DNA of 64,000 nucleotides from a bacterium (GCA_963674595.2 CAXXFV010000007.1:32001-96000), one strand, 5' to 3'; positions 281 through 53,258 are shown, counted from the stretch's first letter. A program made the numbers and translations. The notes: generated by a model from the sequence alone, not told the origin.

Positions 281-865
281 ATGAATCGTACTAACAGACG
301 TTCAATCCGGTTAAAGGATTATGATTATTCTCAGGCCGGTTATTATTTTGTGACGATTTGCACGCAAAAGCATGTCTGTTTGTTTGGTGACGTGTTAGAT
401 GGGCAAATGGTTTTAAATGAGGTTGGTCAATATGTACAAGGTTGTTGGCAGGAAATACCGAACCATTTCCCGCATGTCAAGTTGGATAATTATTGTATTA
501 TGCCAAATCATATTCATGGAATTATTATCATTGTTGGACCGGTCGATGATAATGAAATACATGTAGGGGCGAAAAATTTTTCGCCCCTACGCCGTTCAAT
601 ACCTGAGTGCACATCAAAATCCTTTTCGCGCCAACATTCAATGCCTCTAGGACCATCCAAAACCATTGGTTCAATAGTTCGGGGTTTTAAAATCGGTGTT
701 ACAAAATGGATGCGGCAACACCACCCGGGGCAAATATTATGGCAGCGAAATTATTACGAACATATTATTCGCGACGAACGCGATTATAACAGGATTTGTA
801 AATATATTGAAACCATTCCGTTAAAATGCGAACAGGATTCCTTAAATCCTGTGTTCGGAGAATAA
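281..865 (+). mobile_element. REP-associated tyrosine transposase (RAYT, Y1/HUH family)
   Basis: RRSIRLKDYDYSQAGYYFVTICT N-terminus, HUH motif MPNHIHGII, WQRNYYEHIIR and KYI catalytic Tyr region. Confidence 0.9.
563..590. repeat. Perfect 28-bp GTAG-initiated REP-like palindrome inside the RAYT gene
   Basis: gtaggggcgaaaaa|tttttcgcccctac is its own reverse complement and is read in frame as VGAKNFSPL. Confidence 0.85.
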
Positions 866-3073: not shown

Positions 3074-3084
3074 AGAGAACTGTG

Positions 3085-3546
3085 ATGCCCGGAACGTTTT
3101 CACAATTATACATCCAAATTGTATTTGCCGTTAAAGGCCGAGAAAATCTCATCTCTGAATCATGGCAAAACGAGTTGCATCAGTATCTGGCCGGAATTGT
3201 TAAAGGCATAGGTCATAAACCGATCATCGTAAATGGAATTCCGGACCATATCCACGCGTTTGTCGGATTGAAACCATCTATGGCTATTTCTGATTTGGTA
3301 CGAGACATGAAAAACAATTCTACTAATTTTATCAATAAGCGGGAATTTGTTCAGGGAAGGTTTTGCTGGCAGGAAGGGTATGGGGCTTTTTCCTATTCGC
3401 ATTCACATATAGAGAATGTGTATAATTATATAAAGAACCAACAGGAACATCATCGGAAGAAATCATTCCGGGAAGAGTATCTAGAGTTTTTATAAAAGTT
3501 TGAAATTGATTACGATGAAAAACATTTGTTTGATTGGTTGGATTAG
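3085..3546 (+). pseudogene. tnpA: IS200/IS605-family (Y1 HUH) transposase with an in-frame nonsense codon
   Basis: QLYIQIVFAVKGR, DHIH HUH motif, WQEGYGAFS, YIKNQQEHH; TAA at 3493-3495 is followed in frame by KFEIDYDEKHLFDWLD* ending 3546. Confidence 0.85.
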
Positions 3547-21405: not shown

Positions 21406-21523
21406 AAATAAAAACAAACCTGACGATTGAAAAATCGTTAATAATAATTATTTTATAATGGGTCGGCAAAATTCTCAGAGGTTTTGCTTGAATACAATAA
21501 TTACATACCAAAGGGACAATTCA

Positions 21524-22174
21524 ATGAATATGGGAAAAGTCATTGTACGGACAATTGTTATATTGAGTTTTGCTGCAAGTAGTGCTTTTTGCGATAACAG
21601 CATTATCGGATTTGGCGGAGGTTCCGCACATGCTCTCGGTGAAGGCAGCGAGTATTGGAAAACAGGTTTTAATATGAACGGAGAATTGTTTCAAAAGGTT
21701 TCCGAATATACTTATTTTGGGGTACGTGCATCATTTAACCGGTGGAGTCCTGATCAAAGTAAAGTGGAGAATGATTTAACCAGTGAAGTGAGAAATGATT
21801 ACTGGTATCACTCTACAGTCAATTTGTTGGATGTACATCTCGATGGTTCTTTTACGACTCTTGAAATTATCCCAAGTTTTAAATTTATAACAAAACCAAA
21901 TCCTGATGAACCGTCACAATTATTTGGTCAGCTGGGTGCAGGAATGTATTTTTGCAACGCTGACATAAAAGCAACCGCAAGAGTATCCAGCAGGACTGTG
22001 ACTGTCAAAGTTAATGAAACAGAAAATAGAATCGGTGTAAATGGCGGTGTGGGTTTAATCATTGGAGGAAAAGTAACCAAATTGGCTATCAATTCCATGT
22101 TTCATCTGGTCTTTACGGATGATGAATGGACAAAATATATCAATATCAACCTGAATATTTTATTTTGTAATTGA
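21524..22174 (+). CDS. Outer membrane beta-barrel protein (OmpA/OmpW-like membrane domain)
   Basis: Signal peptide, alternating beta-strands, FGQLGAGMY, IGVNGGVG. Confidence 0.7.
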   Translation: MNMGKVIVRTIVILSFAASSAFCDNSIIGFGGGSAHALGEGSEYWKTGFNMNGELFQKVSEYTYFGVRASFNRWSPDQSKVENDLTSEVRNDYWYHSTVNLLDVHLDGSFTTLEIIPSFKFITKPNPDEPSQLFGQLGAGMYFCNADIKATARVSSRTVTVKVNETENRIGVNGGVGLIIGGKVTKLAINSMFHLVFTDDEWTKYININLNILFCN

Positions 22175-22310
22175 TTTTTTTGTCAGGTTTGTTTTATAAA
22201 TATTTGGATTGATAAAAAAACAAAATTGTCCTTTTTTCATTTCTAATATTTATTATATTTATAAAGAAAGGTGAGTCAGTAAAGCAGTTTTTTATAAACA
22301 GGAGCCTGCT

Positions 22311-48735: not shown

Positions 48736-48761
48736 GAGGCCGTTTCCCGAAAAGCGGCCTC
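48736..48761 (+). terminator. Hairpin after the symporter gene
   Basis: gaggccg...cggcctc GC-rich stem. Confidence 0.65.
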
Positions 48762-48778: not shown

Positions 48779-48925
48779 TCAATTAAATTTCCTCAAATAA
48801 AACTCTGTTTCGTTATACTCGGAAACTACAAGCCGGTTCGAATGAACAAGTCCTTCCACAACTGAAAAATTTGTACCTGATTTTTCTGTTAGTTCCGGCA
48901 GGGCTGATTTCTCTATCGGGCGTAC
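48779..48925 (-). repeat. Duplicated 3' end of the radical SAM gene (left direct repeat)
   Basis: 48785-48925 aligns without gaps to 52328-52468; encodes ELTEKSGTNFSVVEGLVHSNRLVVSEYNETEFYLRKFN*. Confidence 0.95.
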
Positions 48926-49327
48926 CAATGATATGTATTATGCTCTGCATGATTCAGGGGTAGAGCATAATTATAATATGTTTTTGATCCGAACATCAAA
49001 ATAAAATATTGCCGTAAAAATGTTACCATTTCTTAAAATGTCCTTGACAATTTCATAAAAACAGTTAAATTAAAGTAATTATCCAAAAAATTTTAACCAG
49101 GCGGTCTTGATATTTAAAAAATATTTGTGAAAATCAGGTACGATTTTAATTCAAGTATTTAAGTTTGATTTTAACCTGTATTATGTTTTTGTAACAGGCT
49201 ATTGTTTCAAAGCTTTATCAATACATTGATTTTTAGCTGATTATATTTGATAGTGTTTTACTAAAACAAAGTATAAAACTGATCCACCTTTAGTATTAAA
49301 GCCAATTATACTATTTATTAGGCTCCA

Positions 49328-49344
49328 GGTTAGCAACCCTAAAA
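49328..49344 (+). repeat. Inverted-repeat arm 1L
   Basis: GGTTAGCAACCCTAAAA just 5' of the AAGGAG RBS; complementary to 49804-49820. Confidence 0.9.
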
Positions 49345-49362
49345 AAATTAAGGAGATCAATT

Positions 49363-49767
49363 ATGAAAAACACATTTTTCAAAATTTTAGCAATTACCAT
49401 CCTTGTTTTAATCTTTTCTTTTAATAGTTCTTATTGCTACACCGGTGCATGGGTTACAGTAACACAATATACAGACGCTAAGCTGGAGGAATTCGTTTAT
49501 CTTACTCCGACAGCATTAAATGTTGATTATGAACTTCACATTTCCTGGAATTATAATACCGGCAGAATTTATGCGGAAGCGACTCTTAATGATGGATATG
49601 ATGATGAATGGAGTTGGGTTGAAAGTGCTCGGGCAGATTATTTTTGCAGTCCTGATCCGATATTTGGCGAAACAGGGCAAATTCTGTCAGGGGCATGGGC
49701 TTATGCTTATGCTGAACGAAAAAATTCCAATGCGACGATTTGTTCATGGGCGTTCTATTCTTATTAG
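49363..49767 (+). CDS. Small secreted beta-rich protein, paralog 1
   Basis: AAGGAG RBS, Sec signal peptide, shares TGAW, YLTP, ELHISW, AEAT, SWVE, SGA.AYAY, CSWAFY with 50096. Confidence 0.85.
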   Translation: MKNTFFKILAITILVLIFSFNSSYCYTGAWVTVTQYTDAKLEEFVYLTPTALNVDYELHISWNYNTGRIYAEATLNDGYDDEWSWVESARADYFCSPDPIFGETGQILSGAWAYAYAERKNSNATICSWAFYSY

Positions 49768-49803
49768 TTTTTATTCTTTTTAAAAAATAATTAAATAGGT
49801 CGG

Positions 49804-49820
49804 TTTTAGGGTTGCTAGCT
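49804..49820 (-). repeat. Inverted-repeat arm 1R
   Basis: TTTTAGGGTTGCTAGCT, 36 nt after the stop codon. Confidence 0.9.
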
Positions 49821-50059
49821 TTTATTTTTTTAATTCGATTAAAATTTAATAAAATTTTTGATCATAAGCTTTAAGAAGGGAAATATGGCATAACGATATT
49901 TTCTGTTTTGGTAGAGATGTTCCAGTTTTCATTTTTTTCAAGACATCTTTGATTCTTTTGGTTACCAAAGGAAATTGTTTTACATGTACAACAACAGGTG
50001 CATTGTTAATATAAAATTGATCCATTATAAATAAATAACAACATTTTTATTAATATTGC

Positions 50060-50073
50060 AAGTTAGCAACCCT
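50060..50073 (+). repeat. Inverted-repeat arm 2L
   Basis: AAGTTAGCAACCCT just 5' of the AAGGAG RBS; exact complement of 50543-50556. Confidence 0.9.
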
Positions 50074-50095
50074 CAAAAAAATAAGGAGATCAATT

Positions 50096-50501
50096 ATGAA
50101 AAATAAATTTCCTATATTTTTTGCTATTATTATTTGTTTATTAATTTTTAGTTTTACGAATTCTTATGCCGTTACTACCGGGGCATGGGCGACTATTGGC
50201 TATGGACCTCCAACAGAAAAAGAAGATGAGGAGTATCTTACTCCTGCAACCGGCGTTGCCTGGGAACTACATATCTCCTGGAGTAATAATTCTGGATACG
50301 TGTCGGCAGAGGCGACCATTAATACCAATGGTGATGGTGTCTATAGCTGGGTTGAAACTAACAGAACCGAGGCATCATATAGTCCTGAACCGGAATGGGG
50401 TGAACCCGTTAACATTTATTCAGGCGCTACGGCCTATGCCTATGTAAAAAGTACGAGTGCGAATACTACGGGTTTGTTCCTGGGCTTTTTATACCTGGTA
50501 A
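50096..50501 (+). CDS. Small secreted beta-rich protein, paralog 2 (apparent +1 G frameshift near 50471)
   Basis: Signal peptide and motifs shared with 49363; removing one G from acgggtt gives the C-terminus VCSWAFYTW* (TAA 50499-50501), matching ICSWAFYSY*. Confidence 0.8.
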
Positions 50502-50542
50502 TTTTAATATTAAATTAAATTTAAATTTGTAGCAAAGTTAAA

Positions 50543-50556
50543 AGGGTTGCTAACTT
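50543..50556 (-). repeat. Inverted-repeat arm 2R
   Basis: AGGGTTGCTAACTT. Confidence 0.9.
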
Positions 50557-50597
50557 TTTATAATTGTTTATGTGTAGTATTTTGCGAGGAAGTCAAT

Positions 50598-52294
50598 ATG
50601 AATGGTAGATTTTTTTCATTGATAATAGTTTTCTTTTTTGGATTTATGTTATTTTGCTCTGATCCTGATAAAAATATAAAAGAAAAAATTGTTCTCAAAT
50701 TAGCTAATATTGAAATTACTCATTATGAAATGCAAAAAAAGAATTGACAGGTTCAAAAAAAAATACAAGCAAATATACCGGCAAGATGCACCAGCGGATT
50801 CTATTGAATCTTATATAAACAGTTTTGCAGATGATGTTTACATATTAGCTGAAGCCTTTAACCGGGGATATTATAACGATGCTGATATTGATTCTCTGGT
50901 AGATTTTATGACCCGAAAAATTTTAACACAGCCAAAACGTGGTCAGGTGTATGAGAGATTGATCCTGGATCGTGTTTAAAATCACGGATGATATACTTTA
51001 TGATGCTTTTAATAAAAACAAAAAAGAGTTTAAATTAAAAATATTAAAATTTGCCGACCATCAGGATATGCACAAAACTCTGGGACCGGACACGCTTTTA
51101 TCTTTGGAACGTTTTGAAAAAGTTGCCCATGAAAATAAAAACAGTCAATTTGTAAATATATTTGAAGCGCCTTTTATTTGGCCGTCTTATGGTATTTGGA
51201 AAGTCCAGGATAAAATATTCCAAATGAAAAAAGGTGAAATTTCACCTCCTTTACATGCTAATGATGGTATTTATATCATTTATGTTAAGGATATTAGTAC
51301 AAGGAACCAAAAAACATTTGAAGAGGAACGTCCATCTCTGGAGTGGAGTTTAAAAAATATTTATGAGGAAAAATTATTTTTAGCGGTAAATGATTCGATG
51401 TTTAAAGCTTGCAATCTGGTTATTAATAATGATGCTTGTGAGGAATTTTTTAAGCTGATTCCATCTTCTTATTCTGTAATATTAGAAAAAGAAACGTTTG
51501 CAGAAATTTTGGGTGATACGATAGAAACCTATCAGTATGACAATGAAAAAAACAATGTTACGGTTGATGGATTTTTAGATTTTTATTCAAAATGTTTAAT
51601 TAAAAAACCAATAATTTCAAAAGATATGTTAAAAGATTATTTAAAAGAGCTGGTTAGGGAAAAGTGCTATTATCAATATGCAAAAAATCATAACATTTTA
51701 GAACAACCCCAATTAAAACTTGATATAAAAAATTATAAAAATAAAGTTGTTTTGTCAAAATTCATTGACAATGAGTTGAAAAAAAATATTAAAGTTTCTG
51801 AAGACGAACTATTACATGAATATGAAAATAATATCAATTCTTTCAAGCAGGTGAAATCAATAATTGCTAATTTGTTTTATTTTAATTCCGATCATCATGC
51901 ATATAAGAGCCTGGAGAAATTAAAAAACTGTTCTGTTGATAGTATTAAATATATTACTAAAGATGGAAATCTGAACGGCTTGTTAAAGACAGAGTTTAAT
52001 AGAAAATTAGATTATAATAGTTCATTGTTTAATGAAATGATTTCAAATAGAATACAAAGACTGCGACCCGAACAATTTAGTTTTCCTCTCAGACTAGAGG
52101 ACGGATCTTTTTTAATTGTACAAAAATTAAATGATCAGGGTAACGTTATTAAATCTTTCGATGAGGTACGAGACTATTTAAATAAAAAATTACTTGATCT
52201 CAAAGTAAATAATGAAAAACCGCTTTTTATTAAAAGTTTGAAAGAGAAATATACACCTGAAATTTCTGTGGATAAAAAACAGTTTTTATTGTGA
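50598..52294 (+). CDS. SurA/PrsA-like parvulin-type peptidyl-prolyl isomerase/chaperone, probable lipoprotein (two apparent +1 frameshifts)
   Basis: GAGG RBS, signal ending MLFC; rotamase-like MKKGEISPPLHANDGIYIIYV and LRPEQFSFPL..EDGSFLIV...KSFDEVR; three ORFs join at A7 (50734-50740) and gtttaaaa (~50975). Confidence 0.75.
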
Positions 52295-52324: not shown

Positions 52325-53258
52325 TCAAAATTTTCTCAAATAAAACTCTGTTTCGTTATACTCGGAAACTACAAGCCGGTTTGAATGAACAAGTCCTTCC
52401 ACAACCGAAAAATTTGTACCCGATTTTTCTGTTAGTTCCAATAGGGCCTGTTTGGTCATCGGATGTACGGATGTTATGCTCAAAATGTCCTTTTCAATGT
52501 TTCCGGTGTATGCAAAATCATTGCCCTCGTAGCCTGTTAGATATTCTACCCGGTCAAAATTTGACTGGAAAATTTGATACAGTTCAATCAGCTTTTGTCC
52601 TTCAGGCGGCTGGGTACGTTTTTCTGCCGGGGGCCGAATGGGTATGCTGATATAGGATTTTTCCGGATTTATTCCTTTAATAAACAGAGATACATTTTTT
52701 ATGTTCTCTGGCGAATCATTTAAATCTTTTACCAGCATGGTTTCGGTAACGAGCGTGCCGTTAAATTCTTGTGAAAATTGAAGGATGCCCTTGAATATAT
52801 CATCGAGACTCAAATCTCTTACAGATCTGTTTATTTTTCTCCACAACGCAGAATCGGCGGCATCAACTTTAACAGAAACCCAATCAGCCTGACATAGTGC
52901 ATCTCTGACATGCTGTGAATGTATAAGCGATGAATTGGTAATAACGGCGATTTTTTTCCCAAACTGTTTCAAGGTTTTTATCAGATTACCAAGATTTTCA
53001 TCCAATGTCGGTTCACCGTCTGCGACAAAAGTCAGATAATCAATGGTTTCTTTGTTTTTTTTCAGCATTTATTATTTTTTCCTGTACGTCATTGATAATC
53101 ATTTCAGGATCATAAAATGTCTGTCGTTTTGATGTCATTTTTCCGGCTTTACCCAGTTGACAGTAAACACAGGAATATGTACATGCCTTTGGTGGTATAT
53201 TGTTAATGCCGATGCTTTTTCCCAATCGCCTTGATGGAACAGGTCCGAATGCAATCAT
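52325..53258 (-). CDS. Radical SAM protein, TYW1-like/COG0731 type (one apparent +1 frameshift at T8 53055-53062)
   Basis: FGPVPSRRLGKSIGIN, CTYSCVYC (CxxxCxxC), DGEPTL, VITNSSL. Confidence 0.85.
52328..52468 (-). repeat. Right direct repeat (3' end of the full-length radical SAM gene)
   Basis: Matches 48785-48925. Confidence 0.95.

What the first reader, a model, noticed from the sequence alone, without database searches (positions are those of the whole stretch)
49327..50556. Each of two paralogous secreted-protein genes is clamped by the same long-range inverted repeat
Seen: gene 1 lies between AGGTTAGCAACCCTAAAA (49327-49344) and TTTTAGGGTTGCTAGCTT (49804-49821). Gene 2 lies between AAGTTAGCAACCCT (50060-50073) and AGGGTTGCTAACTT (50543-50556). 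The core TAGCAACCCT is identical in all four arms although the ORFs and spacers have diverged. Left arms end a few nt before the AAGGAG RBS and right arms start ~40 nt after the stop. The two DNA-level mismatches in pair 1 are both G-U pairs on the sense strand, giving an unbroken 18-bp RNA helix. Inference, preferred: a 5'UTR-3'UTR stem that loops out the whole ORF, for RNase III-type excision, stabilisation or circularisation of an abundant subunit mRNA, or for translational gating. Alternatives: recombinase sites for ORF inversion/shuffling (no invertase in the window), or degenerate integron cassette ends (GTTAGCA/TGCTAAC). I do not recognise this arrangement from a described system.
Basis: partly seen in the sequence, partly recalled or inferred. 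Interest (0 to 1): 0.8.

Follow-up and report, generated by a model that had tools for sequence, protein, structure and literature searches.

The report
Complementary mRNA ends clamp twin genes
Two neighbouring copies of a small secreted-protein gene each sit between the same pair of complementary 14-18-base sequences, most likely so that the two untranslated ends of each messenger RNA pair up; the feature is real and conserved, but it resembles a known kind of bacterial mRNA control and could not be proven here.

Summary
All four arms are at the stated coordinates. Pair 1 is an unbroken 18-bp RNA helix with two G.U pairs, and pair 2 is a perfect 14-bp helix. The 12-mer core occurs nowhere else in the 6.6-Mb genome and is not enriched in 42 genomes of the same order. 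The two genes are old paralogs: 48% protein identity and 44% third-codon identity. Their flanks are at random-level identity (32-38%), yet the left arm through the start codon is 33/36 identical and the right arm plus T-run is 15/18. The arms are therefore under selection. Only 4 of 5,529 crude genes in the genome have 14 nt or more of 5'-flank/3'-flank complementarity, and two of those are these genes.

The best reading (about 0.5) is a sense-strand 5'UTR-3'UTR helix of the B. subtilis hbs / S. aureus icaR kind. It abuts a T-run where no strong local terminator hairpin exists. Nothing supports DNA inversion, integron, MITE or regulon-site readings.

The family is an orphan: this genome plus one near-identical contig. 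No covariation test was possible, and no RNA run holds the locus. I file it as a new member of a known kind, of moderate interest.

The parts
49327..49344 (+). L1, left arm of pair 1, in the presumed 5'UTR of gene 1
   Evidence: sequence; 18-bp duplex with R1, -26.8 kcal/mol
49804..49821 (+). R1, right arm of pair 1, 36 nt after the stop of gene 1
   Evidence: (I13)
50060..50073 (+). L2, left arm of pair 2, in the presumed 5'UTR of gene 2
   Evidence: 14-bp duplex with R2, -23.0 kcal/mol
50543..50556 (+). R2, right arm of pair 2, 41 nt after the corrected stop of gene 2
   Evidence: corrected stop
49363..49767 (+). Gene 1: 134-aa orphan protein with an N-terminal hydrophobic signal-like segment
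   Evidence: (no Pfam family)
50096..50518 (+). Gene 2, paralog of gene 1 (48% identity). The window ORF is 140 aa because of one extra G at 50470-50472. The true product is 134 aa with its stop at 50499-50501.
49351..49356 (+). AAGGAG Shine-Dalgarno of gene 1, 6 nt after L1
   Evidence: SD-like motifs precede 1393/3390 long ORFs in this genome against 146/3390 at a control offset
50084..50089 (+). AAGGAG Shine-Dalgarno of gene 2, 10 nt after L2
49820..49831 (+). T-run TTTTATTTTTTT overlapping and following the outer end of R1 (putative U-tract)
   Evidence: the local 3'UTR fold is only -4.8 kcal/mol
50555..50559 (+). T-run TTTTT at the outer end of R2. It runs into a TATAAT hexamer (50559-50564) that may instead serve the downstream foldase gene.
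   Evidence: the local 3'UTR fold is -8.2 kcal/mol
49272..49286 (+). Conserved upstream block TATAAAACTGATCCA, a candidate -10/start region of the gene 1 promoter (inferred)
   Evidence: alignment
50010..50024 (+). Conserved upstream block TATAAAATTGATCCA, a candidate -10/start region of the gene 2 promoter (inferred)
   Evidence: alignment

Best explanation
Each paralog is transcribed with its left arm in the 5'UTR, 6-10 nt upstream of the Shine-Dalgarno, and its right arm in the 3'UTR, about 40 nt after the stop. On the mRNA the arms anneal into a 14-18-bp helix that closes the whole ORF into a loop, a 5'/3'-UTR long-range interaction of the B. subtilis hbs type.

I infer two effects. First, the helix hides both UTRs from ribonucleases and so sets mRNA life-time. 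Second, because it is followed directly by a U-run with no strong local hairpin, it may also define or protect the 3' end.

Shown: the arms exist, they are selected in both paralogs, they are unique to this locus, they are G.U-compatible only in the sense RNA, and they pair in predicted ensembles.

Inferred: both arms lie on one transcript, they pair in vivo, and the pairing affects stability or termination.
For: - Conservation islands. The left arm through the ATG is 33/36 identical and the right core plus 8 nt is 15/18. Adjacent non-coding stretches are 19/60, 15/40 and 15/40, and third codon positions are 44% identical over 124 codons (alignment).
- Strand asymmetry. Pair 1 forms 18 bp on the sense strand against 14 bp on the antisense strand. 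A T-run follows R1 and R2, with no mirrored A-run before L1 or L2.
- No room for a promoter between the left arm and the ATG (18-22 nt), so the left arm should be transcribed. No terminator-like hairpin lies between the stop and the right arm.
- The helix is in both the MFE and the centroid folds. Mean pair probability is 0.94 and 0.97 in monocistronic models.
- Rarity. These are 2 of the 4 genes with a flank complement of 14 nt or more, among 5,529 scored.
- The core is not a repeat or regulon site. It is unique in the genome, with 2 single hits in 42 genomes of the order against 23 control hits.
[quoted passage not shown] For icaR see PMC3868564 (abstract read).
- The genome encodes RNase III (two adjacent frames) and an RNase E/G protein.
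Against: - No transcript evidence. No listed run is RNA, so the TSS, the 3' end and co-transcription of the arms are unknown.
- No covariation test is possible. The family exists only in this genome and one near-identical contig.
- The 12-nt core is identical in all four arms, with no compensatory change. That fits sequence-specific recognition by a protein as well as it fits a helix.
- The G.U argument rests on two transitions. By my estimate (no call) the chance of both being G.U-compatible is about 1 in 4.
- In a bicistronic model the fold prefers R1:L2 and L1:R2 (0.95 each) over L1:R1 and L2:R2 (0.04 each).
- Fold z-scores are modest for unit 1: -1.35, with 11/100 shuffles as good.
- There is no genome-wide excess of right arm plus T-tail over controls, 20 against 26.
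- The T-run after R2 overlaps a TATAAT that may belong to the next gene.
- Thermodynamic prediction of loops of about 460 nt is unreliable in translated mRNA.
Confidence: 0.5

Rival explanations
1. DNA-level recombination sites. A site-specific recombinase encoded elsewhere in the genome inverts, deletes or shuffles the segments between the four mutually compatible arms, giving phase variation of the two secreted proteins (inverton or shufflon type).
For: Four arms with an identical 12-nt core in alternating orientation. Strict sequence conservation with no covariation. The genes encode secreted, fast-diverging proteins, a typical phase-variation cargo. The genome has 8 tyrosine-recombinase matches that could act in trans.
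Against: No recombinase, resolvase or integrase domain in 53 window ORFs, and none of the 8 genomic matches lies on this contig. One contig of X1 spans the whole locus in the reference order, and the pieces of X2 agree. No strand-changing joint was reported, though depth is only 3-8 and these are contigs. The arms have no internal dyad symmetry beyond GTT..AAC. The G.U and T-run asymmetries have no meaning at the DNA level.
Confidence: 0.15
2. Protein-binding DNA or RNA sites. One sequence-specific protein binds the conserved TAGCAACCCT core at all four places, for example as an operator pair or DNA loop around each gene, or as an RNA-binding regulator. The complementarity would then be a by-product of site orientation.
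For: The core sequence itself is invariant in all four copies while everything around it has diverged. A second conserved block lies 44-49 nt upstream of each left arm.
Against: The site occurs nowhere else in the genome and is not enriched in 42 relatives, so any regulator would have a two-gene regulon. No regulator gene is adjacent. A non-palindromic site placed after the stop codon in inverted orientation has no obvious operator logic. It also does not explain why pair 1 extends to 18 bp only through G.U pairs.
Confidence: 0.1
3. Relic without present function. The inverted repeat arose once in the ancestor, for example by template switching or as the ends of a defunct mobile cassette. It looks conserved only because of short gene-conversion patches between the tandem copies.
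For: Tandem paralogs 733 nt apart can exchange sequence. The first 25 codons are more alike at third positions (0.64) than the rest (0.38), which could reflect conversion at the 5' end. The locus lies in a low-GC 3.4-kb segment bounded by a 151-nt direct repeat, suggesting an acquired piece of DNA.
Against: The right arm is an 18-nt island (15/18) between stretches at random-level identity (15/40 on each side), which is too short for a normal conversion tract. There are no target-site duplications next to the arms, no other copies in the genome and no transposase nearby.
Confidence: 0.1

Closest known systems
B. subtilis hbs mRNA 5'/3'-UTR long-range interaction (Braun, Durand, Condon 2017, PMC5737220; abstract and section 16 read)
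   Same: A small gene with a strong SD. A 14-nt fully complementary stretch in the 5'UTR pairs with the 3'UTR close to the transcript's end, at similar duplex energy (-19 kcal/mol there, -23 to -27 here). There it modulates RNase access and mRNA stability.
   Different: In hbs the 3' partner lies upstream of a separate canonical terminator hairpin. Here the right arm itself abuts the T-run and no strong local hairpin is predicted. Here two paralogs share the same arms, and all four arms are cross-compatible. No experimental evidence exists here. RNase Y and RNase J are not clearly present: only an N-terminal RNase Y-like fragment and no clear RNase J.
S. aureus icaR 5'UTR-3'UTR pairing (Ruiz de los Mozos et al. 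2013, PMC3868564; abstract read)
   Same: [quoted passage not shown]
   Different: In icaR a UCCCCUG motif masks the SD and blocks initiation. Here the helix ends 6-10 nt upstream of the SD and does not include it.
rRNA-operon processing stalks: the flanks of 16S and 23S rRNA pair and are cut by RNase III (established knowledge, recalled)
   Same: Complementary flanks loop out a whole functional unit. RNase III is encoded in the genome.
   Different: Those stalks are longer, about 20 bp or more (recalled). Here the helices are 14 and 18 bp, and the cargo is an ORF with its own SD.
Invertible DNA segments (invertons, shufflons)
   Same: Inverted repeats of 14-18 bp flanking a segment of a few hundred bp. 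Multiple compatible sites sit in one locus.
   Different: No recombinase nearby, no alternative orientation seen, and sense-strand-only features.

Membership tests
Intramolecular 5'UTR-3'UTR interaction of a bacterial mRNA (hbs/icaR kind) | Complementary segments lie upstream of the start and downstream of the stop of the same gene, on the coding strand | tested here: met
   left arms 19-36 nt before the ATG and right arms 36-41 nt after the stop. Duplexes of 18 and 14 bp.
Intramolecular 5'UTR-3'UTR interaction of a bacterial mRNA (hbs/icaR kind) | Both segments are present on one transcript | not testable with these tools
   No RNA run is listed for the locus. The only argument is indirect: there is no room for a promoter after the left arm and no terminator before the right arm.
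Intramolecular 5'UTR-3'UTR interaction of a bacterial mRNA (hbs/icaR kind) | Pairing is maintained in evolution (covariation or G.U-compatible change) | tested here: inconclusive
   No orthologs outside this species. Both paralogs keep both arms amid saturated flanks. The 2 changes inside helix 1 both give G.U, and there is no compensatory double change.
Intramolecular 5'UTR-3'UTR interaction of a bacterial mRNA (hbs/icaR kind) | Disrupting the pairing changes mRNA stability or translation, and compensatory mutation restores it | not testable with these tools
   This needs an experiment.
RNase III processing stalk | dsRNA of about two helical turns, roughly 20 bp or more (recalled criterion) | tested here: not met
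   18 bp (pair 1) and 14 bp (pair 2). An RNase III gene is present but split into two frames in this assembly.
Invertible DNA segment (inverton or shufflon) | A site-specific recombinase is encoded at or near the locus | tested here: not met
   0 of 53 window ORFs carry a recombinase domain. 8 Phage_integrase matches exist in the genome, none on contig C7.
Invertible DNA segment (inverton or shufflon) | Both orientations are present in sequence data | tested here: inconclusive
   Only the reference arrangement appears in the contigs of X1 and X2. Depth is low, and contigs drop rare variants.
Integron gene cassette / attC | An imperfect palindromic attC of about 57-141 nt between ORFs with R''/R' core sites, plus IntI (consensus recalled) | tested here: not met
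   The R1-to-L2 element is about 270 nt, and only its ends pair (DNA fold z -1.65, 11/200 shuffles as good). There is no integrase in the window. L1 has no partner upstream and R2 none downstream.
MITE or IS-like element with terminal inverted repeats | Multiple copies, target-site duplication, and a cognate transposase | tested here: not met
   The arms are unique to this locus. No direct repeat abuts the arms. The only transposase-like ORFs are IS200-type, about 45 kb away.
Intrinsic terminator | A GC-containing stem immediately followed by a U-run | tested here: inconclusive
   A U-run follows both right arms, but the 5' half of the stem would lie about 460 nt upstream. The local alternatives are weak (-4.8 and -8.2 kcal/mol). 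There is no 3'-end mapping.

The most novel reading that the evidence does not exclude
The long-range helix is itself the stem of a split intrinsic terminator. The 5'UTR supplies the upstream half and the 3'UTR supplies the downstream half plus the U-run. RNA polymerase would then stop after the ORF only when the 5'UTR arm is free. If the arm is occupied, for example by an initiating ribosome or by pairing elsewhere, polymerase reads on into the next paralog and the foldase gene. Because all four arms are cross-compatible, R1 can instead capture L2 in a read-through transcript and disarm the second terminator. The tandem pair would then act as a switch that sets the ratio of the two proteins and their chaperone.
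Probability: 0.12. Interest if true: 0.75.

Novelty: new member of a known kind. Interest (0 to 1): 0.4.

Why it matters
Documented 5'UTR-3'UTR pairings within one bacterial mRNA are few; hbs and icaR are the ones I read. Here two ancient paralogs have kept the same pairing while everything neutral around it has decayed. That amounts to an internal conservation test for an orphan gene family with no orthologs. If the helix also serves as the terminator stem, it would link termination or 3'-end protection to the state of the 5'UTR, a coupling I did not find described. In practice the locus gives a compact test case of about 500 nt for long-range mRNA folding outside the model Firmicutes.

Tried and rejected
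- Orthologs for covariation. Six searches all returned only this genome's two genes, one near-identical 18-kb contig, and two giant T9SS Ig/PKD-repeat proteins that share the domain (P0003 E 7e-8, P0004 E 3e-5; Pfam). The searches were a word-index search, exhaustive HMMER over 1.84 billion representatives, 60 relatives' genomes, genome contigs, and phages and plasmids. A scan for the conserved SD-to-start 22-mer found 6 metagenome and 10 genome loci from unrelated organisms, and 0 of those 16 carry the arm core.\n- RNA evidence. No RNA holder is listed.\n- Inversions. No strand-changing joint appears in the contigs of 4 runs. Only X1 spans the whole locus, depth is 3-8, and X3 and X4 cover only parts.\n- Genome-wide habit. 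462 inverted repeats of 12 nt or more were examined. A right arm plus T-tail occurs 20 times, against 26 for the controls. Flank complements of 14 nt or more number 4 of 5,529, about what the tail of the distribution predicts apart from this locus.\n- Sigma-54 or sigma-70 promoter readings of the arms. I checked these by eye against recalled consensus sequences. The spacing fits for R1 only and is not shared by R2, L1 or L2, so I rejected them.\n- Rfam: 0 matches at E up to 1. No tRNA or tmRNA nearby.\n- Protein fold. The AlphaFold2 model on the 2-row alignment has mean pLDDT 41.3 and is unusable, so no fold search was run. The best ESM Atlas score is 0.85, which gives no lead.\n- attC-like folding of the R1-L2 spacer: rejected.\n- Bacteroidota-type promoter motif TAnnTTTG: not enriched upstream of genes in this genome.

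Full report
**1. The observation**

- L1, 49327-49344: AGGTTAGCAACCCTAAAA
- R1, 49804-49821: TTTTAGGGTTGCTAGCTT
- L2, 50060-50073: AAGTTAGCAACCCT
- R2, 50543-50556: AGGGTTGCTAACTT

The 10-nt core TAGCAACCCT has exactly four exact copies in the 64-kb window, two on each strand. On the sense strand, pair 1 forms 18 contiguous pairs (-26.8 kcal/mol) and pair 2 forms 14 (-23.0). On the antisense strand pair 1 drops to 14 pairs (-21.3). The two DNA mismatches in pair 1 are therefore G.U pairs in the sense RNA only.

L1 ends 6 nt before its AAGGAG and L2 ends 10 nt before its AAGGAG. R1 starts 36 nt after the gene 1 stop.

**2. A correction to gene 2**

The window ORF is 140 aa, but contigs of three runs lack one base at 50470. 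The database protein P0002 is identical up to that point and then ends ...TTVCSWAFYTW, parallel to the ...ICSWAFYSY end of gene 1. The real gene 2 is therefore 134 aa with its stop at 50499-50501, and R2 starts 41 nt after it.

The same contigs lack one base at 49169 and one at 50734. The RNase III gene elsewhere in the genome is split into two adjacent frames. This assembly evidently carries homopolymer indel errors. The arms themselves agree with the contigs of X1 and X2.

**3. Is it more than chance?**

A perfect 14-nt inverted repeat is not rare on its own. The genome has 56 such pairs with at least 4 G/C at 150-1500 nt spacing. Three other results carry the weight.

- Position. Among 5,529 crudely called genes, only 4 have a perfect complement of 14 nt or more between -60..-1 and +1..+80, and two of the four are these genes.
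- Uniqueness. The 12-mer with up to 1 mismatch hits 8 places in 6.6 Mb, four of them the arms, against 27 for the reversed control. In 42 other genomes of the order it has 2 single hits, against 23 for the control.
- Conservation. The proteins are 48% identical. Third codon positions are 44% identical over 124 codons. Ungapped non-coding flanks are 19/60, 15/40 and 15/40 identical, which is random level for this AT-rich DNA. In contrast, the left arm through the ATG is 33/36 identical, and the right core plus 8 nt is 15/18 (alignment).

Both arms have therefore been kept by selection in both copies since an old duplication.

**4. What the genes are**

Both proteins have a hydrophobic N-terminal signal-like segment and match no Pfam family. 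Exhaustive HMMER found only the two clusters and two giant proteins. Each cluster holds two members: this genome and one 18-kb contig. The giant proteins (2769 and 1612 aa) repeat a related domain. They carry Ig-like, PKD-like and T9SS C-terminal sorting domains.

None of 60 relatives has a homolog. Neither phages nor plasmids do. The AlphaFold2 model was unusable, with pLDDT 41.

The next gene downstream has a PPIase (Rotamase_2) domain. It begins with a lipoprotein-like leader and is broken into three ORFs in the window, at least once by the 50734 indel.

The organism uses Shine-Dalgarno sequences widely: 41% of long ORFs against 4% at a control offset. It does not show the Bacteroidota TAnnTTTG promoter motif.

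**5. RNA or DNA?**

Evidence for the RNA reading:
- G.U pairs form only on the sense strand. This is weak. By my estimate the chance of both being G.U-compatible is about 1 in 4 for two transitions in A-U pairs.
- A T-run directly follows both right arms (TTTTATTTTTTT and TTTTT), with no mirrored A-run before the left arms. That asymmetry has meaning only for a + strand transcript.
- The 3'UTRs have no convincing local terminator hairpin (-4.8 and -8.2 kcal/mol over 71-79 nt). Neighbouring genes do have strong GC-rich terminators (48736-48761, after 21354).
- Only 18-22 nt separate the left arm from the ATG, so a promoter must lie upstream and the left arm should be in the transcript.
- A conserved block TATAAAAYTGATCCA sits 44-49 nt upstream of each left arm. 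It could be the -10/start region (inference).
- The helix appears in both MFE and centroid structures. Its mean pair probability is 0.94 and 0.97 in monocistronic models.

Evidence against the RNA reading, or limits on it:
- No RNA run holds the locus.
- No orthologs exist for a covariation test.
- The 12-nt core shows no compensatory change.
- In a bicistronic model the nested alternative (R1:L2 plus L1:R2, 0.95 each) beats L1:R1 and L2:R2 (0.04 each).
- The fold z-score for unit 1 is only -1.35.
- The T-run after R2 runs into a TATAAT that could serve the foldase gene.

**6. DNA-level alternatives**

- Recombinase. No recombinase, resolvase or integrase domain appears in 53 window ORFs. Eight Phage_integrase matches exist in the genome, none on this contig.
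- Orientation. One X1 contig spans the locus in the reference arrangement and the X2 pieces agree. No strand-changing joint was reported, but depth is low and contigs hide rare forms.
- attC. The R1-L2 spacer pairs only at its ends (z -1.65), so it is not attC-like. L1 and R2 have no outer partners.
- Mobile element. The arms are single-locus, no target duplication abuts them and no cognate transposase is near, so a MITE or IS is unlikely.
- Regulon site. A regulon operator is unlikely because the site is unique.
- Known RNA families. Rfam has no match.

**7. Most likely mechanism**

I commit, at about 0.5, to an intramolecular 5'UTR-3'UTR helix that closes each monocistronic mRNA.

The nearest proven case is B. 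subtilis hbs. [quoted passage not shown] It was confirmed by compensatory mutations (PMC5737220). icaR is a second case, but there the 3'UTR masks the SD (PMC3868564). Here the helix stops 6-10 nt short of the SD.

The genome encodes RNase III and an RNase E/G protein. I could not clearly find RNase Y or RNase J. At 14-18 bp the helices are short for RNase III (recalled criterion). I therefore favour protection of both ends over excision.

The distinctive point is that the right arm abuts the U-run directly. The bolder reading, a terminator stem split between the two UTRs, is not excluded, and I give it about 0.12.

**8. Novelty**

The kind is known (hbs, icaR, rRNA stalks). Earlier unchecked notes of this scan report several gene-bracketing RNA stems in phages and CPR bacteria. 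This is a new member. It has two unusual traits: the same arms are kept on two old paralogs, and the right arm is fused to the U-run. I did not find a split terminator of this kind in the literature searches. These searches cover open-access text only.

Noticed in passing
window 48785-48935 and 52328-52478: A 151-nt direct repeat at 87% identity. The second copy is the 3' end of the minus-strand radical-SAM gene, and the first is an orphan fragment of the same C-terminus. The 3.4 kb between them holds an AT-rich leader, the two small genes and the PPIase/foldase-like gene. Its GC is low (22-33% in the foldase gene, against 38.8% for the genome). It looks like an inserted segment bounded by a duplicated gene end, with no integrase inside.
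   Followed up: partly
window 49169, 50470, 50734; G000:C27:421106-421767: The window assembly carries single-base homopolymer insertions that read-based contigs lack. They frameshift gene 2 and the downstream PPIase-like gene, which is split into ORFs 50547-50747, 50710-50979 and 50972-52294. The RNase III gene is likewise split into two frames.
   Followed up: partly
window 21411-21424 and 22182-22195: A second perfect 14-nt inverted repeat (AAAACAAACCTGAC / GTCAGGTTTGTTTT) brackets another family-less secreted-looking gene (about 21524-22174). Here the left arm lies just after the upstream gene's terminator and apparently upstream of a TATAAT. About one such case is expected by chance genome-wide.
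   Followed up: partly
window 49272-49286 and 50010-50024: A conserved block TATAAAAYTGATCCA lies 44-49 nt upstream of each left arm. It is the only other conserved non-coding island between the two units and is a candidate promoter -10/start region.
   Followed up: partly
window 49804-50077: R1 and L2 are also complementary (18 nt at 89%, with 238 nt between them). In a modelled read-through transcript, R1:L2 and L1:R2 pairings out-compete L1:R1 and L2:R2.
   Followed up: partly
G000 contigs C6, C16, C19, C23, C29 (e.g. C23:95194-96556): An element of about 1.35 kb with 14-nt terminal inverted repeats AACTTGAGAAAAGG is present in at least 5 copies. It is presumably an insertion sequence.
   Followed up: no
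G000:C23:97768-98458: A 27-nt perfect inverted repeat about 640 nt apart. Each arm is itself palindromic (GGCACG...CGTGCC), so these are probably two copies of one hairpin element.
   Followed up: no
window 281-862 and 3082-3492: Two ORFs carry IS200-like Y1 transposase domains.
   Followed up: no
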